Source: a virus
Taxonomy: Duplodnaviria; Heunggongvirae; Uroviricota; Caudoviricetes
Reading direction: 5' to 3' (one strand)
DNA: 6,432 nucleotides
Virus record (IMG/VR): IMGVR_UViG_3300029241_000122
Span: 1-6,432 of that record
Below, piece after piece: positions 1 to 6,432 of the stretch; positions within the stretch are counted from its first letter, which is position 1, and every line of letters begins with the position of its first letter. Below the pieces are notes generated by a model that saw only the letters and a list, made by a program, of their open reading frames with translations, was not told the origin of the DNA and did no database searches. The position numbers and the translations under genes are program-made.

Positions 1-221
1 TGATAGAAACAGAAGCCACTGGAGCACCTCAAAAACACCATCATACACTAAATCAGTAAGTTGGCAGCATCACCAACATAATCTGTCGCGAGTGCCGGAA
101 GAGTGAAGCTATGCAGCGTGTACTGGCTTTCTATCAGGGTAATTTTCAGGAGGCGGTACTGTGAGTGAAATTAGCTATCAGGCTTCAATTACCGCTGGCA
201 TTCGCATCAAAGGAGAGGAGC

Positions 222-578
222 ATGGAAATAAAACCAGAGGATGAGTTAAGCAATATCGTTTTATTTCCGGTAAAAGAGGATGACCCTCGTAATCAGGTTA
301 ATTTTCTTTATGAGCCATCGGAAAGACCATATTGTCATCACGCCTCTGTCCGGGTTGACGAAAAAGAGCGTCAGGTCCGCTGTAAAATCTGCGGTGCAGT
401 TGTGGAGCCATTTGACTGGATGCTCTCTGTGGCGAAAAGAGAAACCAGACTGGCAGATGATGTAAGGCTCTTGCGTCAGGAGGAGCGGGAAAGGCGAAAA
501 AATATAGAAAAGCTAATTCAGATTGAGCGTAACGCGAAAGCGCGGATACGCAGGGCGACAAAATCCAGAACTGAATAA
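222..578 (+). CDS. Hypothetical protein, 118 aa, with a Cys/His zinc-ribbon-like motif (PYCHH...x13...CKICG) and a basic coiled-coil-like C-terminus
   Basis: ATG at 222 is preceded by the SD AGGAG (211-215) at 6-nt spacing; stop TAA at 576-578. The ORF track uses an in-frame GTG at 165 (alternative start, 11 nt after AGGAGG 148-153). A 27-codon uORF (GTG 161 to TGA 242-244, SD spacing 7 nt) overlaps the ATG and could be a coupled leader. Function unknown. Confidence 0.6.
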   Translation: MEIKPEDELSNIVLFPVKEDDPRNQVNFLYEPSERPYCHHASVRVDEKERQVRCKICGAVVEPFDWMLSVAKRETRLADDVRLLRQEERERRKNIEKLIQIERNAKARIRRATKSRTE

Positions 579-642
579 TTAAATTTAGCTCTGTTAAAAA
601 TTTAATCCTTAACCGGAGGGATTTCTGCACCCTCAGAACATC

Positions 643-674
643 AGGAGGCCGCCCGAAAGGGCGGTAGTTAAATG
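643..674 (+). promoter_or_regulatory. Structured ribosome-binding site: SD AGGAGG (643-648), then a 6-bp hairpin with GAAA tetraloop (649-664), then ATG (672)
   Basis: CCGCCC GAAA GGGCGG is a perfect 6-bp GC stem with a GNRA loop lying between the SD and the start codon. Linear SD-to-ATG spacing is 23 nt; with the hairpin folded the effective spacing is about 7 nt. No U-tract follows, so it is not a terminator. Confidence 0.35.
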
Positions 675-854
675 CGAAAGTTTAAAATAATTATTGAAAC
701 GGGAATAGCCGGTGGAGATTTCGAGGATGAATTCGAAGTGGATGATGATGCGACGCCTGATGAAATACATGACGAAGCAAAAGATATTTTCTTTAACTAC
801 TGCAATTACTCATATCACGAAATAAAAGACGAAGAGGAAGAACAAAATGGCTGA
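672..854 (+). CDS. Small highly acidic protein, 60 aa (D/E-rich, ends KDEEEEQNG)
   Basis: ORF with ATG at 672 directly after the hairpin-bridged SD. Its stop TGA (852-854) overlaps the next ATG (847) in an ATGGCTGA arrangement. Strongly acidic composition. Function unknown. Confidence 0.6.
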   Translation: MRKFKIIIETGIAGGDFEDEFEVDDDATPDEIHDEAKDIFFNYCNYSYHEIKDEEEEQNG

Positions 855-1023
855 TTTTGGTTCAACTAAATACAACGTCAGTTTTGAAGAATGGCATGAA
901 CTGTTAATGGGCTATGCAGAGTTACGTGGTGGCAGTGCTGCTGATGCTGAAGCATGGCGTGATGATTATGAAGCAGGAAAAACTCCGGTCGAAGCATATT
1001 GTGATGAGTGGGGCGATGAATGA
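847..1023 (+). CDS. Small acidic protein, 58 aa (MADFGSTKYNVSFEEWHELLMGYAELRGG...CDEWGDE)
   Basis: Falls below the 60-aa ORF-track cutoff and was found by hand translation. SD GAGGAAG lies about 7 nt upstream of ATG 847. Its stop overlaps the next ATG as ATGA (1020-1023). Composition is protein-like. Confidence 0.55.
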   Translation: MADFGSTKYNVSFEEWHELLMGYAELRGGSAADAEAWRDDYEAGKTPVEAYCDEWGDE

Positions 1024-1336
1024 GCGAGGTTAATTATCAGGAAGGGCATGAAACGGCGGGGCAAGCAAAAACAGTGGCATGGCGATATCGCTACGTGAAA
1101 AAAAAGGCGTTACGGACTTTCAGGGGAAGTAGTGGTCTGGTGACTGGAAATATGTACCGAAAAAAGAGGATTGTAACGACAGGCCGAACTATGAAATTCA
1201 GGCCTTATTCACTGCCCCGCCAGTCCCGGTTACATCAGAAGAACTGGTTAAAGCTGTGCACTTTTATGAACAACTAAAACGCGAAAATCCACCAGCATCC
1301 GGAAACCTGATTACAGATTCCCAGATAAGGCAATGA
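1020..1336 (+). pseudogene. Frame-disrupted ORF: N-terminal part in frame 0 (MSEVNYQEGHETAGQAKTVAWRYRYVKKK...), C-terminal part in the -1 frame (...DWKYVPKKEDCNDRPNYEIQALFTAPPVPVTSEELVKAVHFYEQLKRENPPASGNLITDSQIRQ, stop 1334-1336)
   Basis: Frame 0 after the A8 run (1098-1105) turns R/K-rich and junk-like. The -1 frame from 1133 to 1336 reads like real protein but has no start codon. Two in-frame A_AAA_AAG heptamers lie at 1100-1106 and 1160-1166. Either a homopolymer frameshift pseudogene or a -1 frameshift site. Confidence 0.4.
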
Positions 1337-1432
1337 GCTACCTGGCGCAGAACGGGCTGATAAGTATGGGGAATGTTTTACGATGAATATTTAGACTAAA
1401 GAGTTTGTAACGCTATGTAAGTGATTTTTTCT

Positions 1433-1460
1433 GGTTTAGATATTTATATGTCCGGCCAAA
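1433..1460 (+). repeat. Left copy of an imperfect ~30-bp direct repeat (GGTTTAG-ATATTTA-TATGTCCGGCCAAA)
   Basis: Matches the right copy at 1704-1735 over the blocks GGTTTAG (7/7), ATATTTA (7/7) and TGT.CCGG.CAAA. The two copies bracket the AT-rich islet that carries the small membrane protein gene. Confidence 0.5.
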
Positions 1461-1506
1461 TTGAGGTGTGTTTAAATGTAATTGCACATTGATTGTAGGA
1501 GGAATA

Positions 1507-1686
1507 ATGAAAAACGCATTGCAGTTTTTGTTTGTTGCGTTCTGGTTGTTCGTATCATGTATGCCCATCATCTTCACAGCAAGGTATATGGAAAAAGTTG
1601 ATGTTTTGATATTAATATTTGGATATATAAATGCCCTTTTTTTAGGGGTGTTCATGGCGGTCATGTGCATTGAATACTGGCGGTAA
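1507..1686 (+). CDS. Small membrane protein, 59 aa, with two predicted hydrophobic helices (MKNALQFLFVAFWLFVSCMPIIF...VDVLILIFGYINALFLGVFMAVMCI)
   Basis: Strong SD AGGAGG (1497-1502) lies 4 nt before ATG 1507; stop TAA 1684-1686. The ORF-track start (GTG 1468) is in frame but lacks an SD. Sits in an AT-rich block between the direct repeats. Confidence 0.6.
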   Translation: MKNALQFLFVAFWLFVSCMPIIFTARYMEKVDVLILIFGYINALFLGVFMAVMCIEYWR

Positions 1687-1703
1687 ATACAGCGAACGCC
1701 ATT

Positions 1704-1735
1704 GGTTTAGTTGGATATTTACTGTGCCGGACAAA
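1704..1735 (+). repeat. Right copy of the imperfect direct repeat (GGTTTAG-TTGG-ATATTTA-CTGTGCCGGACAAA)
   Basis: See the left copy at 1433-1460. This copy carries an extra TTGG and lies just upstream of the predicted hok promoter. Confidence 0.5.
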
Positions 1736-1741
1736 AACGGT

Positions 1742-1769
1742 TTGCGGGGAAATCTTAGTTAAGTAGAAT
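1742..1769 (+). promoter_or_regulatory. Candidate sigma70 promoter of the hok mRNA (-35 TTGCGG 1742-1747, 16-bp spacer, -10 TAGAAT 1764-1769)
   Basis: The predicted transcript start near 1776 begins GGGTGCTTGAGGCTATCTG..., which resembles the 5' end of plasmid R1 hok mRNA (GGCGCTTGAGGCTTTCTG..., recalled from memory). The leader around 1900-1945 also resembles the R1 hok leader (GATAGCCTCTTAC...AAGGAGAAG). Confidence 0.45.
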
Positions 1770-1888
1770 GACTGCGGGTGCTTGAGGCTATCTGTCTCAG
1801 GCATGAACACCAAAAGGCAGATAGAGAAAAGCCCCAGTTAACATTACGCGTCCTGCAAGACGCTTAACATTAATCTGAGGCCATATCT

Positions 1889-1948
1889 ATGCGACACATA
1901 GAGATTAGCCTCTTACGGACCGAAAGGTCAAGGAGAAGCAGGCTATGA
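1889..1948 (+). CDS. mok-like 19-codon leader ORF translationally coupled to hok (stop TGA overlaps the hok ATG in CTATGAAG)
   Basis: ATG 1889 to TGA 1946-1948, 4-nt overlap with the hok start. Position matches mok in hok/sok loci, but the ORF is much shorter than R1 mok. Confidence 0.4.
   Translation: MRHIEISLLRTERSRRSRL
1902..1931 (-). promoter_or_regulatory. Candidate Sok-like antisense promoter (minus strand: -35 TTGACC, 18-bp spacer, -10 TAATCT)
   Basis: The reverse complement of 1902-1931 reads TTGACC-N18-TAATCT. Transcription would run leftward from about 1895, antisense to the mok-like start region, as the Sok RNA does in hok/sok systems. No clean terminator was found for it. Confidence 0.3.
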
Positions 1949-2109
1949 AGCAGCAAAAGGCGATGTTAATCGCCCTGATCGTCATCTGTTTAACCGTCAT
2001 AGTGANNNNNNNNNNNNNNNNNNNNNNNNNNNNNNNCCTCTGCGAGGTATGAATCCGAACCGGCCAGACGGAGGTCGCTGTCTTCACAGCTTACGAACCT
2101 GAGGAGTAA
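1945..2109 (+). pseudogene. hokD: Hok/Gef family type I toxin gene (HokD/RelF-like), interrupted by a 31-N run and carrying an in-frame TGA at 2050-2052
   Basis: N-terminus MKQQKAMLIALIVICLTVIV matches HokD as recalled. After the N-run the frame reads LCEV-TGA-IRTGQTEVAVFTAYEPEE-TAA, i.e. the conserved Hok C-terminus with TGA where Arg (CGA) is expected. SD AAGGAG lies about 10 nt upstream of the ATG. Confidence 0.65.
2006..2036. other. Run of 31 N (unresolved or masked bases) inside the hok ORF
   Basis: Seen directly in the sequence. If the length is exact, the hok frame is preserved across it. Confidence 0.95.
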
Positions 2110-2178
2110 GAGACCTGGCGGGGGAGAAATCCCTCGCCACCTCTGATGTGTCAGGCATCCTCAACGCACCCGCACTTA

Positions 2179-2204
2179 ACCCGCTTCGGCGGGTTTTGTT
2201 TTTT
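2179..2204 (+). terminator. Rho-independent terminator at the hok mRNA 3' end
   Basis: ACCCGC-TTCG-GCGGGT hairpin (6-bp stem, UUCG tetraloop) immediately followed by TTTGTTTTTT. A second GC-rich hairpin lies upstream at about 2113-2136. Confidence 0.8.
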
Positions 2205-2276
2205 CCTGGCATTCTGGTTTACAATTCGCACGTCAGCCTGAACACCTGACACCTGCTGCGCCAGCAGAGAAAACAG

Positions 2277-2549
2277 ATGGCGCACAAAACCAAATTTCAC
2301 AATTCTGATACCGACCTTGCCATCCGGCATGAGCGGCGTTCACACGCATTTAAAACCGACTGGTACCAACACCCACCATGTACTGAAGAACAGGCCGAAT
2401 GGCTGATTCATTCTTACCGCAGGCGCGGGTTCGAGGTTAAGAAAGCTCTCAGTCTCGACTATCGGCACTGGATAATCTCTGTCAGGCTGCCTTATTCCGA
2501 ACGCCCACCACGTCCGTCCCGCACTTTCCAGCAACGGATCTGGAGGTAA
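2277..2549 (+). CDS. Hypothetical protein, 90 aa; possibly the N-terminal part of a disrupted gene that continues in the 2551 frame
   Basis: ATG 2277 has a weak SD and an in-frame stop just upstream at 2247. The C-terminal residues (PPRPSRTFQQRIWR) look out-of-frame, and the next ORF frame is already open from 2476. Confidence 0.35.
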   Translation: MAHKTKFHNSDTDLAIRHERRSHAFKTDWYQHPPCTEEQAEWLIHSYRRRGFEVKKALSLDYRHWIISVRLPYSERPPRPSRTFQQRIWR

Positions 2550-2550
2550 C

Positions 2551-2958
2551 GTGCGGGTATTACTTAGACCTGTTCTGGTGCCTGAGCTTGGGCTGGTGGT
2601 CCTTAAGCCGGGCCGTGAATCCATACAGATATTTCATAATCCTCGAGTGCTGGTGGAGCCGGAACCGAAAAGCATGCGTAATCTGCCGTCCGGGGTTGTT
2701 CCTGCCGTTCGCCAGCCGCTAGTGGAAGACAAAACATTGCTGCCGTTTTTCAGTAACGCACGGGTGATTCGTGCTGCTGGTGGTGCTGGTGCATTGTCTG
2801 ACTGGCTGTTGCGCCATATTAAATCCTGCCAGTGGCCACACGGCGATTATCATCACAGCGAAACCGTCATTCACCGTTATGGTACCGGCGCAATGGTGTT
2901 GTGCTGGCACTGCGACAACCAGCTGCGTGACCAGACAGGCGACCGCAATCATTACTGA
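2551..2958 (+). CDS. Cys/His-rich, zinc-binding-like C-terminal domain protein (CQWPHGDYHH...CWHCDNQ); resembles DUF968-type lambdoid prophage proteins (YdfU/YdaW-like), probably a fragment
   Basis: Starts at GTG 2551; stop TGA 2956-2958 abuts the ATG of the Rz fragment. The family assignment is from memory and unverified. Confidence 0.45.
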   Translation: MRVLLRPVLVPELGLVVLKPGRESIQIFHNPRVLVEPEPKSMRNLPSGVVPAVRQPLVEDKTLLPFFSNARVIRAAGGAGALSDWLLRHIKSCQWPHGDYHHSETVIHRYGTGAMVLCWHCDNQLRDQTGDRNHY

Positions 2959-2959
2959 C

Positions 2960-3265
2960 ATGCAGATACGCCAGCGTGATGTTGCTGCACTCGATGCAAA
3001 ATACCTGAAGGAGTTAGCTGATGCGAAAGCTGAAAATGATGCTCTGCGTGATGATGTTGCCGCTGGTCGTCGTCGGTTGCGCATCAAAGCAGTCTGTCAG
3101 TCAGTGCGTGAAGCCACCGCCACCTCCAGCGTGGATAATGCAGTCTCCCCCAGACTGGCAGACACCGCTGAACGGGATTATTTCACCCTCCGGGAACGAC
3201 TGGTAATGATGCAGGCCCAACTTGAAGGTGCTCAGCAATACATAACCGAACAGTGTTTAAAGTAA
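2960..3265 (+). pseudogene. rzpR: N-terminally truncated Rz i-spanin (lysis gene remnant)
   Basis: Translation ...ITDMQIRQRDVAALDAKYLKELADAKAENDALRDDVAAGRRRLRIKAVCQSVREATA...DYFTLRERLVMMQAQLEGAQQYITEQCLK closely matches the C-terminal two-thirds of lambda Rz. The N-terminal TM segment is missing. The longer track ORF from 2771 is an out-of-frame read of the upstream gene. Confidence 0.75.
3021..3206 (+). CDS. rzoR: Rz1 o-spanin outer-membrane lipoprotein, embedded in the +1 frame of Rz
   Basis: MRKLKMMLCVMMLPLVVVGC with lipobox VVGC, proline-rich PPPPPAW segment, 61 aa, near-identical to lambda Rz1 as recalled. SD AAGGAG lies 7 nt upstream of ATG 3021. Confidence 0.8.
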   Translation: MRKLKMMLCVMMLPLVVVGCASKQSVSQCVKPPPPPAWIMQSPPDWQTPLNGIISPSGNDW

Positions 3266-3402
3266 AATCTTAACTACAATATGATTCATTTTGATGATTG
3301 TTTCATAAGGAACAGTGAAGTAAGATCTAAGAGGAGTTAAATTTTATACAGTATAATCATAATATTGCAGCAAGGTGGTTATAATTGAAAGAATATTTAG
3401 AT

Positions 3403-4860
3403 ATGAATACATCTCATGTAAGAGTTGTTACTCATATGTGTGGGTTCCTGGTTTGGCTCTATAGTCTTTCAATGTTGCCACCAATGGTTGTAGCATTGTT
3501 TTATAAAGAAAAAAGCCTGTTCGTTTTCTTTATAACTTTCGTTATATTTTTTTGCATTGGTGGCGGAGCGTGGTATACAACTAAGAAATCTGGCATTCAA
3601 TTACGTACCCGTGATGGGTTTATTATAATTGTAATGTTTTGGATTTTGTTTTCTGTTATTAGTGCATTCCCTTTATGGATTGACTCAGAACTTAATTTAA
3701 CGTTCATTGATGCTCTGTTTGAAGGGGTTTCTGGAATAACAACAACAGGAGCAACTGTAATTGATGATGTTAGTTCATTACCTCGGGCATATTTGTACTA
3801 TCGGTCACAGTTAAATTTTATAGGTGGTTTAGGAGTTATTGTTCTGGCGGTTGCAGTATTGCCATTATTGGGTATTGGTGGTGCAAAGCTTTATCAGTCA
3901 GAAATGCCGGGGCCATTTAAGGATGACAAACTCACTCCCCGCCTGGCCGATACGTCACGGACACTGTGGATAACTTATTCTTTATTAGGTATTGCTTGTA
4001 TTGTCTGTTATAGACTTGCAGGAATGCCTTTGTTTGATGCTATTTGTCACGGGATTTCCACAGTTTCGCTTGGTGGTTTCTCAACTCATAGCGAGAGTAT
4101 CGGATATTTTAATAACTATTTGGTTGAGCTGGTGGCTGGTGCTTTTTCCCTGCTATCGGCTTTCAACTTTACTCTTTGGTATATTGTTATTAGCAGAAAA
4201 ACGATAAAACCTTTAATCAGAGATATTGAACTTCGTTTCTTTCTGTTAATAGCCTTAGTGGTGATCATTGTTACCTCTTTCCAGGTCTGGCATATAGGTA
4301 TGTATGACTTGCATGGAAGTTTTATTCATTCGTTTTTTCTTGCCAGCTCCATGCTCACTGATAATGGTTTAGCTACGCAAGATTATGCAAACTGGCCCAC
4401 GCACACGATAGTGTTTTTGCTGTTGTCAAGTTTCTTTGGGGGATGTATAGGTTCAACTTGTGGTGGAATTAAGTCACTTCGATTTCTTATACTTTTCAAA
4501 CAAAGCAAACACGAGATAAATCAGCTTTCTCATCCCAGAGCGTTGTTGAGTGTAAATGTAGGAGGGAAGATAGTTACAGATCGTGTAATGAGGTCTGTAT
4601 GGAGTTTCTTTTTTCTTTATACTCTCTTCACGGTGTTTTTTATACTGGTGTTAAATGGTATGGGATATGATTTTCTTACATCATTTGCAACAGTGGCTGC
4701 ATGTATTAATAATATGGGATTAGGTTTTGGGGCTACTGCATCGTCATTCGGAGTGCTTAATGACATTGCAAAATATTTAATGTGCATAGCTATGATTCTT
4801 GGTCGCCTTGAAATTTATCCTGTTATTATATTGTTTTCAGTTTTTTTTTGGCGCTCCTAA
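3403..4860 (+). CDS. trkG: TrkG, Trk-system K+ uptake membrane protein (TrkH/TrkG family), 485 aa
   Basis: Translation from ATG 3403 (MNTSHVRVVTHMCGFLVWLY...) matches E. coli TrkG as recalled and aligns with TrkH motifs (GATxxxxxSLP, EMPGP, GGxGSTxGG). Markedly AT-rich relative to flanks. An upstream TTG at 3385 preceded by AAGGTGG is an alternative start. Confidence 0.9.
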   Translation: MNTSHVRVVTHMCGFLVWLYSLSMLPPMVVALFYKEKSLFVFFITFVIFFCIGGGAWYTTKKSGIQLRTRDGFIIIVMFWILFSVISAFPLWIDSELNLTFIDALFEGVSGITTTGATVIDDVSSLPRAYLYYRSQLNFIGGLGVIVLAVAVLPLLGIGGAKLYQSEMPGPFKDDKLTPRLADTSRTLWITYSLLGIACIVCYRLAGMPLFDAICHGISTVSLGGFSTHSESIGYFNNYLVELVAGAFSLLSAFNFTLWYIVISRKTIKPLIRDIELRFFLLIALVVIIVTSFQVWHIGMYDLHGSFIHSFFLASSMLTDNGLATQDYANWPTHTIVFLLLSSFFGGCIGSTCGGIKSLRFLILFKQSKHEINQLSHPRALLSVNVGGKIVTDRVMRSVWSFFFLYTLFTVFFILVLNGMGYDFLTSFATVAACINNMGLGFGATASSFGVLNDIAKYLMCIAMILGRLEIYPVIILFSVFFWRS

Positions 4861-4943
4861 TATATGGCTGATTTATAATTGTGAGTTTAATATTATATTG
4901 ACTCACTCATTGATCCAATACCTAACTTTACCAGCAACACCTC

Positions 4944-4980
4944 CGCCCCCAGTAGCACTGGCTGCTGGGGTGCGTTTTAT
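4944..4980 (+). terminator. Putative intrinsic terminator downstream of trkG
   Basis: Stem CCCCAGTAGC / GCTGCTGGGG (10 bp with one G-U pair, loop ACTG), extendable by 3 bp with one bulge, followed by TTTTAT. It lies only about 18 nt before the next start codon, so it may be a partial terminator or attenuator. Confidence 0.45.
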
Positions 4981-4997
4981 TCATAAAGCAAGGCTGT

Positions 4998-5786
4998 ATG
5001 AGCGAGAAATTAAAGATAGTCTATCGCCCATTACAAGAATTGTCACCGTATGCGCACAACGCCAGGACGCACAGTACTGAGCAGGTGGCACAACTGGTAG
5101 AAAGTATTAAGCAATTCGGCTGGACTAATCCGGTGCTGATTGACGAAAAGGGCGAAATTATTGCGGGTCACGGTCGTGTTATGGCGGCTGAAATGCTCAA
5201 AATGGATTCTGTTCCGGTCATTGTTCTGTCTGGCCTGACGGATGAGCAGAAAAAGGCGTACCGCTTGGCAGATAATCGCCTACCGATGAATGCTGGCTGG
5301 GATGAAGATCTGTTGCGGATGGAGCTGTCGGTCCTAATCAATGCTGATTTTGATGTCTCCCTGACAGGCTTCGGCCCGACAGAAATTGATGAACTGTTGA
5401 CGGATGTTTTGCCCGGTATAGGAAATAAGGAGGAGCCGTATACGACGAAAATTGATACGCCTGTTTATGAGCCGTCGGGCGGTAAACCGGATATCAGTGA
5501 ACTGTACGACGATACGAAAACTCAGGAGCTGATCAGCCGGATACGTTCGGCGTCCCTTGATCCTGATATTGAGAAATTCCTCCTGTGTGCGGCAGAACGT
5601 CACACGGTGTTTAATTTCAGCAGAATTGCGGACTATTACGCTCATGCCCCCGCTGAAATTCAGTGCCTTTTCGAGGAGTCGGCGCTGGTGATCATTGATT
5701 ATCAGCAGGCTATTGAAAATGGATTTGTCCGAATGACGCAGCGCATGGTGGAGATCATGCATGGCGGGGAGGAGGAATATGCGTGA
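4998..5786 (+). CDS. ParB-like N-terminal domain (ParB/Srx fold, ParB-like nuclease type) protein, 262 aa, with an uncharacterised C-terminal half
   Basis: N-terminal about 95 aa (KIVYRPLQELSPYAHNARTHS...IIAGHGRVMAA...VIVLSGLTDEQKKAYRLADNRL) fits the ParB-like nuclease domain pattern. May correspond to an intact version of the Rac ynaK region (unverified). Its stop overlaps the next gene start. Confidence 0.75.
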   Translation: MSEKLKIVYRPLQELSPYAHNARTHSTEQVAQLVESIKQFGWTNPVLIDEKGEIIAGHGRVMAAEMLKMDSVPVIVLSGLTDEQKKAYRLADNRLPMNAGWDEDLLRMELSVLINADFDVSLTGFGPTEIDELLTDVLPGIGNKEEPYTTKIDTPVYEPSGGKPDISELYDDTKTQELISRIRSASLDPDIEKFLLCAAERHTVFNFSRIADYYAHAPAEIQCLFEESALVIIDYQQAIENGFVRMTQRMVEIMHGGEEEYA

Positions 5787-6381
5787 TGATTTTTGCGCCT
5801 TTATTCTGACTCACGGACGACCGGAAAAAGTTCTGACTTACCGGACGTTGCGTCGTGCTGGCTATACCGGGAAAATTTTTATCGTTGTTGATGATGAAGA
5901 TAAGACACGGCATCAGTACATGGCTGAATTTGGTGAACAGGTGCTGGTATTTTCCAAAGCCGATATCGCCAGTCGTTTTGACGAAGCCGATAATTTTGGT
6001 GACCGCCGCTCAATTTTTTACGCCCGTAATGCCTGTTTCGACCTGGCAAAACTGGTCGGGTGTAAATACTTCATTCAGCTCGATGATGATTATCACGAGT
6101 TCCAGTTTCGGGTGGATCGCAACTATGACCAGGCCTATTTCCCGATAAGGAAACTGGATGCGATCCTTTCTGAAATGCTGGCGTATTACGAATCAATACC
6201 CGCGCTTTCCATCGCTATGTCGCAGGGCGGGGATTTTCTTGGTGACAATGGCGGCCATGCTTCGTGGGTGAAACGCAAGGCAATGAACAGCTTTATCTGT
6301 TCGGTTGATCGACCGTTCTCATTCATGGGGCGCATTAACGAGGATGTGAATACGGGTAATGCTGCCAACTTACTGATTTAG
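5779..6381 (+). CDS. GT-A fold glycosyltransferase-like protein (family-2-like), about 200 aa
   Basis: Motifs CAFILTHGRP...KIFIVVDDED and RRSIFYARNACFDLAKLVGCKYFIQLDDDY fit the GT2 pattern (strand-helix-strand with acidic patch, then ARN...G.Y..LD.DD, the DxD motif). Strong SD GGAGGAGG before ATG 5779, which overlaps the ParB-like stop by 8 nt. An in-frame ATG at 5761 is an alternative start. Confidence 0.6.
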   Translation: MRDDFCAFILTHGRPEKVLTYRTLRRAGYTGKIFIVVDDEDKTRHQYMAEFGEQVLVFSKADIASRFDEADNFGDRRSIFYARNACFDLAKLVGCKYFIQLDDDYHEFQFRVDRNYDQAYFPIRKLDAILSEMLAYYESIPALSIAMSQGGDFLGDNGGHASWVKRKAMNSFICSVDRPFSFMGRINEDVNTGNAANLLI

Positions 6382-6432
6382 TGTATGATGGTGATTTTAA
6401 GGTGCTTGCGTGGCTTCCATTTCCATCAGATG
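6381..6432 (+). CDS. Partial ORF running off the window end (VYDGDFKVLAWLPFPSD...); either a coupled downstream gene or a -1-frame continuation of the glycosyltransferase-like gene
   Basis: GTG 6381 overlaps the TAG stop 6379-6381 by 1 nt. The frame is open from 6360 to the window end. Confidence 0.3.
   Translation, partial: MYDGDFKVLAWLPFPSD

What the first reader, a model, noticed from the sequence alone, without database searches (positions are those of the whole stretch)
2277..3265. Decayed lysis region: Cys/His-rich protein remnant abuts an N-truncated Rz while Rz1 stays intact
Rz homology begins abruptly near 2935-2960, exactly where the upstream ORF ends (TGA 2956-2958, then ATG 2960). 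Q antiterminator, holin and endolysin, expected between a DUF968-like gene and Rz in lambdoid phages, are all absent. This points to a single deletion joining the two genes. Rz1 keeps a strong SD, lipobox and full length, suggesting it is retained or still expressed on its own.
Basis: partly seen in the sequence, partly recalled or inferred. Interest (0 to 1): 0.4.

Follow-up and report, generated by a model that had tools for sequence, protein, structure and literature searches.

The report
Lysis-gene deletion scar in Rac prophage
This is an ordinary scar of prophage decay: one 5.6-kb deletion in an E. coli Rac-type prophage removed the late-gene activator and the cell-bursting genes, joining two broken genes and leaving a small embedded lipoprotein gene intact simply because the deletion stopped short of it.

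Summary
The window is a decayed Rac-type prophage of E. coli, near-identical to strain EC24. An undeleted relative (strain TUM9803) matches window 75-2937 and 2936-6354 at 100%. Splicing its two flanks reproduces the window exactly, so there was one 5,586-bp deletion with a 2-bp microhomology (CA, 2936-2937). It joins codon 129 of a 349-aa DUF968/HNH-type gene (GTG 2551) to codon 46 of the 154-aa Rz i-spanin. Lost are the DUF968 domain itself, RusA, antiterminator Q, two unknown genes, the holin, YdfR, the lysozyme, and Rz residues 1-45 including its membrane anchor. ORF 2277-2549 is a separate, intact 90-aa gene, not part of the remnant. Rz1 (3021-3206) is intact with a Shine-Dalgarno site (SD) and lipobox. 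That is not evidence of retention, because the flanks show zero substitutions against the intact prophage, so nothing has had time to decay. A sister deletion (strain LR-28) cuts Rz1. K-12 Rac (ydaW'-'rzpR-rzoR-trkG) is an independent deletion of the same kind. NCBI's annotation pipeline (PGAP) already marks both fragments as pseudogenes. Ordinary, low interest.

The parts
2277..2549 (+). Intact 90-aa gene of unknown function (phrog_1212). It normally precedes the DUF968 gene and is not part of the remnant.
   Evidence: phrog_1212 E=4.4e-36. Annotated as the identical protein WP_023141427.1 in EC24, WB61 and TUM9803.
2551..2937 (+). First 129 codons (GTG start, SD GGAGG at 2540-2544) of a 349-aa DUF968/HNH-endonuclease-family gene (YdfU type). 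The C-terminal 220 codons, including the Pfam DUF968 domain, are deleted.
   Evidence: 100% identical to TUM9803 up to 2937. The full-length protein has DUF968 at aa 160-346. PHROG 96 and phrog_11007 match residues 1-131. PGAP marks it 'missing C-terminus' in EC24.
2936..2937 (.). Deletion junction: a 2-bp microhomology (CA) shared by both parental breakpoints. 5,586 bp are missing here.
   Evidence: Base-by-base comparison and exact reconstruction from the TUM9803 flanks.
2938..2958 (+). Out-of-frame tail of the truncated DUF968 ORF (GDRNHY, then TGA 2956-2958), read from Rz sequence in the wrong frame.
   Evidence: Translations.
2936..3265 (+). Rz (i-spanin) remnant: codons 46-154 plus the stop codon. 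The N-terminal 45 codons, including the transmembrane anchor, are deleted. The first in-frame ATG is at 2960 (Met54), with no SD.
   Evidence: Pfam Phage_lysis 1.1e-43 and phrog_13 profile positions 54-154/154. Full Rz has a Kyte-Doolittle (KD) 19-residue hydropathy peak of 2.86 at residue 4, versus 0.27 in the remnant. PGAP marks it 'lysis protein, missing N-terminus' at exactly these coordinates in EC24.
3021..3206 (+). Rz1 (o-spanin lipoprotein), full length at 61 aa, embedded in the +1 frame of Rz. SD GAAGGAG at 3007-3013; lipobox VVGC with the Cys20 codon at 3078-3080; penta-proline stretch.
   Evidence: Pfam Rz1 1.1e-18 and phrog_3198 2.2e-28. 100% nucleotide identity to the copy in the intact prophage.
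2178..2205 (+). Context: an intrinsic-terminator-like hairpin plus T-run at the end of the hok/sok locus, just upstream of the 90-aa gene.
   Evidence: The sok Rfam match is at 1776-1947.
3403..4860 (+). Context: intact trkG (K+ transporter), the cargo gene immediately downstream that every deletion variant examined keeps.
   Evidence: Annotation transfer from EC24 and 100% identity to TUM9803.

Best explanation
The region is a fresh deletion scar in a Rac-type lambdoid prophage of E. coli. One illegitimate-recombination event using a 2-bp microhomology (CA) removed 5,586 bp. The lost stretch runs from codon 129 of the DUF968/HNH-type gene to codon 46 of Rz. It took out the DUF968 domain, RusA, antiterminator Q, two unknown genes, the P21-type holin, YdfR, the lysozyme, and the membrane anchor of Rz.

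Shown: the breakpoints, the deleted gene content, and the identity of both flanks to an undeleted relative.

Inferred consequences:
- The prophage can no longer activate late genes or lyse the cell.
- The 135-aa DUF968 stump and the anchor-less Rz fragment are pseudogenes.
- An Rz fragment made from Met54 would stay in the cytoplasm and could not meet Rz1.
- Rz1 is an intact bystander, without a working partner and without its normal late-promoter drive.
- Its intactness reflects where the breakpoint fell and how recent the event is, not selection.
For: - Flanks: window 75-2937 and 2936-6354 are each 100% identical to contiguous stretches of strain TUM9803 that lie 5,586 bp apart. Splicing those stretches reproduces window 2037-6354 exactly.
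- Independent confirmation of the spacing: strain CH4796 has the same spacing between the two halves.
- Gene content: the intact interval holds DUF968, RusA, Q (Antiterm), holin (Phage_holin_2_1), DUF1327, Phage_lysozyme and full-length Rz.
- Gene order in a real phage: the isolated phage HannyBb has the order Hok-like - small ORFs - HNH/DUF968 - Q - holin - two ORFs of lysozyme and Rz size (annotated hypothetical there).
- Not an assembly artefact: the identical junction is in an independent complete genome, EC24, where PGAP calls both fragments partial pseudogenes.
- No IS element or filler DNA at the junction.
- Anchor loss: the Rz hydropathy peak (KD19 2.86 at residue 4) is absent from the remnant.
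- Literature: lambda Rz is a type II inner-membrane protein with a single N-terminal TMD (residues 1-24) that acts as its anchor. The spanin complex is made of Rz plus Rz1 and is needed to disrupt the outer membrane. The lysis genes are driven by pR' (PMC5295617).
Against: - No intermediate forms were sought, so two or more nested deletions that happen to look like one cannot be formally excluded.
- Non-function of the fragments is inferred, not measured.
- The truncated DUF968 ORF keeps a good SD and a region that phrog_11007 models as a 134-position family, so a stable N-terminal polypeptide is possible.
- Rz1 keeps a strong SD and could be translated from any read-through transcript.
- A weak promoter-like match lies at 2826-2853, although the scan as a whole is not above background.
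Confidence: 0.93

Rival explanations
1. Rz1 (with trkG) is a domesticated module. The orphan outer-membrane lipoprotein would be kept by selection and expressed on its own, which would explain why deletions at this locus stop in the 5' part of Rz.
For: Four of five independent deletions mapped here (Rz nt 28, 36, 76, 136) leave Rz1 intact. K-12 annotates rzoR as a CDS next to the pseudogene rzpR. One MALDI study assigned a peak at m/z 4586.76 to RzoR (PMC6115441). Rz1 keeps a strong SD.
Against: - The fifth deletion (LR-28) ends at Rz nt 327, inside Rz1.
- With Rz1 starting at Rz nt 221 of a roughly 520-nt permissible target, 4 of 5 endpoints upstream has a chance probability of about 0.1. This is my own binomial estimate on a non-systematic sample.
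- The window shows zero substitutions against the intact prophage, so it carries no signal of selection.
- The MALDI mass equals the unlipidated mature peptide (4586.19 Da). A signal-peptidase-II-processed lipoprotein should carry acyl chains, so that assignment is weak.
- The constraint is explained more simply by the need to keep trkG and its upstream region.
- Most trkG-linked loci sampled still have a full Rz.
Confidence: 0.05
2. The junction arose by recombination between two different lambdoid prophages, or by several successive deletions, rather than one intra-prophage deletion.
For: E. coli genomes carry several prophages with related DUF968 and Rz genes: a median of 2-3 matching places per genome. 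Mosaic joints are common, for example alternative lysozyme alleles joining at the start of Rz.
Against: Both flanks are 100% identical to one contiguous prophage in TUM9803, and the same spacing is seen in CH4796. The upstream and downstream context (hok ... trkG) is the same Rac-type element. A single event is the most parsimonious reading.
Confidence: 0.03
3. A chance chimeric i-spanin. The Rz reading frame stays open 165 nt upstream of the junction (GTG 2771, 164 aa). This gives a new hydrophobic N-terminus (MLLVVLVHCLTGCCAIL) fused to Rz 46-154, which could re-anchor Rz in the membrane.
For: The ORF exists. Its N-terminal KD19 hydropathy is 1.99. In lambda an artificial TMD can replace the native Rz TMD (PMC5295617).
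Against: - The GTG lies inside another gene's frame, with only a GGTGAT 2 nt upstream as a possible SD, and the same sequence is present in every intact DUF968 gene.
- There is no positively charged n-region.
- Rz residues 25-45 are missing, and the paper suggests a strict length requirement for the periplasmic domain.
- The chance of 55 stop-free codons is about 7% (my estimate), so the open frame is unremarkable.
- Without holin and endolysin a spanin has no lysis role.
Confidence: 0.01
4. Assembly or masking artefact: the junction would be a mis-join in the source assembly.
For: The window contains a 31-N run (2006-2036) whose length does not match relatives, which have 22 nt there. So the record has been edited somewhere.
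Against: The identical junction occurs in the independently assembled complete genome EC24. The N-run is 900 bp from the junction.
Confidence: 0.01

Closest known systems
E. coli K-12 cryptic prophage Rac: ydaW' - 'rzpR (pseudogene) - rzoR - trkG
   Same: It is the same prophage type and the same downstream context: window 2951-5251 is 98.8% identical to K-12. K-12 also has an N-truncated Rz, an intact embedded Rz1, no Q, holin or endolysin, and trkG retained.
   Different: It is an independent event. In K-12 the left partner is a DUF1627-type gene (ydaW), the right breakpoint is Rz nt 28 rather than nt 136, and about 9.0 kb is missing, including hok, the 90-aa gene and the whole DUF968 gene. 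The K-12 junction is in 338 complete genomes, versus 1 for this one.
Phage lambda Rz/Rz1 two-component spanin (PF03245 / PF06085)
   Same: Clear sequence homology, the embedded +1-frame architecture, the Rz1 signal sequence with Cys20, and a proline-rich region (PMC5295617).
   Different: Here Rz lacks residues 1-45, including the TMD that anchors it in the inner membrane. The holin, endolysin and Q-dependent late transcription that give a spanin its role are also absent.
Undeleted Rac-type prophages (e.g. E. coli TUM9803, CH4796) and phage HannyBb
   Same: TUM9803 is 100% identical on both flanks. Its gene order is hok - 90-aa gene - DUF968 - (RusA) - Q - ... - holin - lysozyme - Rz/Rz1.
   Different: They retain the 5,586 bp that are missing in the window.
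Other Rac-locus deletion alleles (OW967003 isolate 624; PK8276/QML220614; LR-28)
   Same: Each removes the holin/endolysin region, ends inside Rz and keeps trkG.
   Different: The breakpoints differ: post-Q intergenic region to Rz nt 36; 90-aa gene to Rz nt 76, annotated as a single 190-aa 'lysis protein' CDS that starts at the 90-aa gene's start; 90-aa gene to Rz nt 327. The last one also truncates Rz1.
Qin prophage layout in K-12 (relBE-hokD-rem-ydfU-quuQ ... essQ-rrrQ-rzpQ/rzoQ)
   Same: From my own knowledge of the K-12 map, Qin has the same module order of hok, a small gene, a DUF968 gene (ydfU), Q and the lysis cassette. RefSeq annotators reuse the names hokD, rrrQ and ydfU for relatives of this locus.
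   Different: Not aligned here. The Qin spanin gene rzpQ is annotated as DUF2514, a different family.

Membership tests
Rz i-spanin (Pfam PF03245 Phage_lysis) | Sequence homology to the Rz periplasmic coiled-coil domain | tested here: met
   E=1.1e-43, profile positions 26-125/126. phrog_13 positions 54-154/154.
Rz i-spanin (Pfam PF03245 Phage_lysis) | N-terminal transmembrane anchor (type II inner-membrane topology) | tested here: not met
   Residues 1-45 are deleted. The KD19 maximum is 0.27 in the remnant versus 2.86 at residue 4 in the intact protein. The requirement comes from PMC5295617.
Rz i-spanin (Pfam PF03245 Phage_lysis) | Own start codon and ribosome-binding site; position downstream of the endolysin in a lysis cassette | tested here: not met
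   The native start is deleted. The first ATG (2960) has no SD. Holin and lysozyme are absent.
Rz1 o-spanin (Pfam PF06085) | Sequence homology, including the proline-rich mature region | tested here: met
   E=1.1e-18. phrog_3198 2.2e-28. PPPPP is present.
Rz1 o-spanin (Pfam PF06085) | Lipoprotein signal peptide with a lipobox Cys | tested here: met
   MRKLKMMLCVMMLPLVVVG|C, with Cys20 as in lambda Rz1 (PMC5295617). This is by sequence only; lipidation was not tested.
Rz1 o-spanin (Pfam PF06085) | Embedded in the +1 frame of Rz | tested here: met
   3021-3206 lies inside 2936-3265 in a different frame.
Rz1 o-spanin (Pfam PF06085) | Functional i-spanin partner with which to form the periplasm-spanning complex | tested here: not met
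   The only Rz at this locus lacks its anchor. Partners encoded by other prophages in the same genome were not examined.
DUF968 / YdfU-type HNH endonuclease (PF06147; PHROG 96) | Pfam DUF968 domain with the C-terminal HNH-like Cys/His motif | tested here: not met
   No Pfam hit for the 135-aa ORF. In the intact 349-aa protein the domain is at aa 160-346, which is all deleted.
DUF968 / YdfU-type HNH endonuclease (PF06147; PHROG 96) | N-terminal region homologous to family members | tested here: met
   PHROG 96 positions 1-131/334, E=4.5e-60. 100% nucleotide identity to codons 1-129 of the DUF968 gene encoding WP_053289977.1.
Rac-type cryptic prophage | Rac gene context (intR-xisR-ralR-recT-recE-racC-kil ... 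trkG-ynaK) | tested here: met
   Seen in the near-identical genome EC24. trkG-ynaK is 98.8% identical to K-12 Rac.

The most novel reading that the evidence does not exclude
Independent deletions in Rac-type prophages repeatedly remove Q, holin and endolysin yet stop within the first third of Rz. This could be because the orphan Rz1 lipoprotein, together with trkG, has been co-opted by the host and is expressed without its spanin partner. The window would then be a very young example of that domestication.
Probability: 0.05. Interest if true: 0.45.

Novelty: already known. Interest (0 to 1): 0.1.

Why it matters
It matters little beyond annotation. The finding gives a base-exact example of how a lambdoid prophage is disarmed: loss of late activation and lysis genes while a useful cargo gene, trkG, is kept. 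It also shows that this locus has been hit by at least five independent deletions in E. coli. This fits the established picture of prophage domestication and the long-annotated K-12 rzpR/rzoR pseudogene pair. The practical lesson is that an intact ORF next to a deletion scar says nothing about selection when the flanks are identical to the undeleted ancestor.

Tried and rejected
- Pfam on the 90-aa and 135-aa ORFs gave nothing. For the 135-aa ORF this is explained, which shows the DUF968 domain lies in the deleted part. PHROGs did recognise both ORFs.
- Exact-junction scans (36-mer) of genome contigs and metagenome contigs found 0 hits, so the window's source and the wider spread of this allele remain unknown.
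- The plasmid search found Rz/Rz1 homologues only from window 2951 onward. No plasmid carries the junction.
- IS1-mediated deletion was rejected for this junction because no IS sequence lies at it. IS1 does explain a different deletion at the left edge of the window.
- The idea that the window shares K-12's ydaW/rzpR junction was rejected: K-12's Rz homology runs 108 nt further upstream and its left partner differs.
- The promoter/terminator scan found 4 promoter-like sites against 1.7 ± 1.2 expected. That is not informative about Rz1 transcription.
- Literature on rzoR/rzpR expression yielded only a mass-only MALDI assignment that fits the unlipidated peptide. A 2025 NAR paper on Rac transcription does not mention ydaW, rzpR, rzoR or trkG.
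- I first computed the deletion as 5,584 bp, which double-counted the microhomology. The corrected figure is 5,586 bp, verified by exact reconstruction.

Full report
**What is in the window**

The 6,432-bp window is a fragment of a Rac-type lambdoid prophage of Escherichia coli, bracketed by IS1 ends. From left to right it holds:
- an IS1 end (1-74)
- four small phage genes
- a hok/sok locus (Rfam sok at 1776-1947)
- a 90-aa gene (2277-2549)
- a 135-aa ORF (2551-2958)
- an Rz-like ORF with an embedded Rz1 (2960-3265 and 3021-3206)
- trkG (3403-4860)
- a ParB-like ynaK homologue
- a GREB1-related gene, interrupted at 6355 by an IS1-like end

The finding's stretch (window 2100-3400) is 100% identical to the chromosome of E. 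coli EC24 (pig isolate, China). In that genome it sits in a Rac prophage with intR-xisR-ralR-recT-recE-racC-kil upstream. Over the rest of the window EC24 differs by only two bases and lacks the right-hand IS1-like element.

**Checking the observation**

The named features are all there.
- The ORF from ATG 2960 matches Pfam Phage_lysis (Rz) at E=1.1e-43, but only over profile positions 26-125 of 126.
- ORF 3021-3206 matches Pfam Rz1 at E=1.1e-18. PHROGs agree.
- Rz1 has GAAGGAG 7 nt upstream of its ATG, a signal peptide ending VVG|C (Cys20), and a PPPPP stretch.
- The upstream ORF ends at TGA 2956-2958.
- No antiterminator, holin or endolysin lies in between.

The 135-aa ORF gives no Pfam hit. 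It matches PHROG 96 'HNH endonuclease' over profile positions 1-131 of 334 (E=4.5e-60) and phrog_11007.

**Mapping the event**

Megablast of window 2100-3400 against 5,426 complete E. coli genomes showed many genomes matching at 100% only up to window 2937, inside a gene annotated 'DUF968 domain-containing protein'. Only EC24 spans the junction. Searching with the right-hand side showed matches starting at window 2936 and running into trkG.

Two genomes (TUM9803 and CH4796) hold both halves in the same orientation, about 5.6 kb apart. The TUM9803 interval is annotated as follows: Hok/Gef - 90-aa hypothetical - DUF968 (349 aa) - RusA - antitermination protein - two hypotheticals (346 and 169 aa) - EssD holin - YdfR - lysozyme - 'lysis protein' (Rz, 154 aa) - trkG - ParB - GREB1-related.

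Direct comparison gives these matches, both at 100%:
- window 75-2937 equals positions 2684-5537 of the reverse-complemented TUM9803 locus (coordinates used below), apart from the N-run
- window 2936-6354 equals positions 11122-14540

Splicing positions 4637-5537 to 11124-14540 reproduces window 2037-6354 exactly. The missing piece is therefore 5,586 bp, and the only shared sequence at the two breakpoints is CA. My first figure of 5,584 bp double-counted that overlap.

**Breakpoints in gene terms**

- On the left, position 2937 is the last base of codon 129 (Thr) of the DUF968-family gene, which starts at GTG 2551 behind a GGAGG.
- On the right, position 2936 is the first base of codon 46 (Gln) of Rz.
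- After the junction the DUF968 frame reads six wrong-frame codons (GDRNHY) and stops.
- The TGA at 2956 and the ATG at 2960 both belong to ordinary Rz sequence (ACT GAC ATG = Thr-Asp-Met54). Their near-abutment is a frame effect, not the junction itself.

Pfam on the intact proteins shows what was lost:
- the DUF968 domain proper (aa 160-346, with a weak HNHc_6 match at 271-319)
- RusA
- Q (Antiterm)
- a P21-type holin
- DUF1327 (YdfR)
- Phage_lysozyme
- the first 45 residues of Rz

Full Rz has a Kyte-Doolittle 19-residue (KD19) hydropathy peak of 2.86 at residue 4. The remnant peaks at 0.27.

An isolated phage, HannyBb, shows a matching order: Hok-like - small ORFs - HNH/DUF968 - Q - ... - holin - two ORFs of lysozyme and Rz size, which that record annotates only as hypothetical. 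About 130 sequenced phages carry homologues of the retained N-terminal part.

**How it most likely works (or does not)**

Established spanin biology comes from PMC5295617:
- Rz is a type II inner-membrane protein anchored by a single N-terminal TMD (residues 1-24).
- Rz1 is an outer-membrane lipoprotein.
- The two bind through their periplasmic domains to span the periplasm, and the complex is needed for the last step of lysis.
- The lambda lysis genes are driven by the late promoter pR'.

Here the anchor, the native start codon, the holin, the endolysin and Q are all gone. I infer the following:
- The prophage cannot lyse the cell.
- Any Rz fragment made from Met54 would remain cytoplasmic.
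- Rz1 has no working partner at this locus and no normal transcriptional drive.

These functional statements are inferences. The structural facts are shown.

**Is Rz1 'retained'?**

The two flanks together (about 6.25 kb) show no substitution relative to the undeleted TUM9803 prophage. The deletion is therefore very recent, and an intact Rz1 is the null expectation.

I also mapped other alleles at the same locus against the intact reference:

| Allele | Left partner | Right breakpoint in Rz | Size | Rz1 |
|---|---|---|---|---|
| K-12 | DUF1627-type ydaW | nt 28 | ~9.0 kb | intact |
| Isolate 624 (OW967003) | intergenic DNA after Q | nt 36 | ~3.5 kb | intact |
| PK8276 (QML220614 covers the window in the same shortened span) | 90-aa gene | nt 76 | ~6.0 kb | intact |
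| Window / EC24 | DUF968 | nt 136 | 5,586 bp | intact |
| LR-28 | 90-aa gene | nt 327 | ~6.3 kb | truncated |

Rz1 begins at Rz nt 221, so four of the five alleles spare it and one does not. On a rough uniform model that is unremarkable (p about 0.1, my estimate on a non-systematic sample). The endpoints are more simply explained by the need to keep trkG, which is expressed and functional in K-12 though partly silenced by H-NS (PMC9898762).

In a spread sample of hits, most trkG-linked loci still have a full Rz preceded by a lysozyme gene. The K-12 junction occurs in 338 genomes, many of them laboratory strains.

The only published hint of RzoR protein I found is a MALDI peak assigned by mass (PMC6115441). 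That mass equals the unlipidated mature peptide (4586.19 Da), which is not what a processed lipoprotein should weigh.

**Rivals**

- A multi-step or inter-prophage origin is not excluded, but it is unparsimonious given the collinear, identical flanks.
- An assembly artefact is excluded by the independent EC24 genome.
- A curiosity: the Rz frame stays open to GTG 2771, giving a 164-aa chimera with a hydrophobic N-terminus (KD19 1.99). An artificial TMD can substitute for the native one in lambda Rz. However, nothing suggests that this start is used, and residues 25-45 are missing.

**Comparison with the known**

This is the same kind of object as the annotated K-12 pair rzpR (pseudogene) and rzoR next to trkG, produced by a different deletion. 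PGAP already annotates the two fragments in EC24 as 'missing C-terminus' and 'missing N-terminus', at window-equivalent 2551-2943 and 2936-3265.

The Rz remnant fails the defining i-spanin features of anchor and start codon. Rz1 meets every sequence-level feature of an o-spanin but lacks a partner. The upstream stump belongs to the DUF968/YdfU family by its N-terminal homology but lacks the DUF968 domain.

**Verdict**

- The single-deletion interpretation is supported and mapped exactly.
- The suggestion that Rz1 is retained or independently expressed is not supported.
- This is ordinary, already-annotated prophage decay. Interest is 0.1.

Noticed in passing
window 1945-2052 (hok ORF); 1776-1947 (sok): The hok toxin gene carries a premature TGA at 2050-2052, where the WB61 hokD allele has CGA. 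Hok is therefore cut to 32 aa in this lineage, as also in TUM9803 and EC24. The sok/leader region still scores 106.7 bits against Rfam RF01794.
   Followed up: partly
window 2006-2036: There is a run of 31 N inside hok. EC24 and TUM9803 have only 22 nt at this place, so the masked stretch is 9 positions longer than the relatives' sequence. The cause is unknown: either masking or a 9-nt insertion.
   Followed up: partly
window 1-74 and 6355-6432: The window is bracketed by IS1 ends in inverted orientation, and both present the GGTGATGCTGCCAACTTACTGAT-type end to the interior. The left one is 100% IS1A. It sits inside the DUF977 gene, and in EC24 it abuts kil, which implies a second, IS1-associated deletion of sieB-racR-ydaS/T-ydaU-ydaV-DUF1627. 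The right one is only 87% identical to IS1A, interrupts the GREB1-related gene (ORF 5761-6381), and is absent from EC24.
   Followed up: partly
window 1507-1686: An unannotated 59-aa, very hydrophobic ORF (MKNALQFLFVAFWLFVSC...) with a GGAGG SD lies in an AT-rich island between a frameshifted phage gene and hok. It may be a small membrane protein or moron. In WB61 a transposase fragment occupies this area.
   Followed up: no
L004 (K-12) 5203-5208; L006 5156-5157; L007 2677-2681; L008 2190-2201: At least five independent deletions in Rac-type prophages remove the holin/endolysin region (and Q in all but isolate 624). They all end inside the 465-nt Rz gene (nt 28, 36, 76, 136, 327) and always keep trkG. 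LR-28 also truncates Rz1. The sample is not systematic.
   Followed up: partly
window 2771-3265: The Rz reading frame remains open 165 nt upstream of the junction. This creates a 164-aa GTG-initiated chimera with a hydrophobic, lipobox-like N-terminus (MLLVVLVHCLTGCC...) fused to Rz 46-154. It is probably a chance ORF.
   Followed up: partly
window 4998-5786: The ParB/Srx-like ynaK homologue reads as a complete 262-aa ORF here, matching the 789-bp CDS in TUM9803. K-12 ynaK is a 264-nt stump, and homology between the window and K-12 ends at window 5251. That is another lineage-specific breakpoint.
   Followed up: no
window 2151-2330 (- strand): RefSeq annotates a 59-aa antisense 'hypothetical protein' (WP_001112736.1) that overlaps the hok terminator and the start of the 90-aa gene. 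It is probably a spurious call.
   Followed up: no
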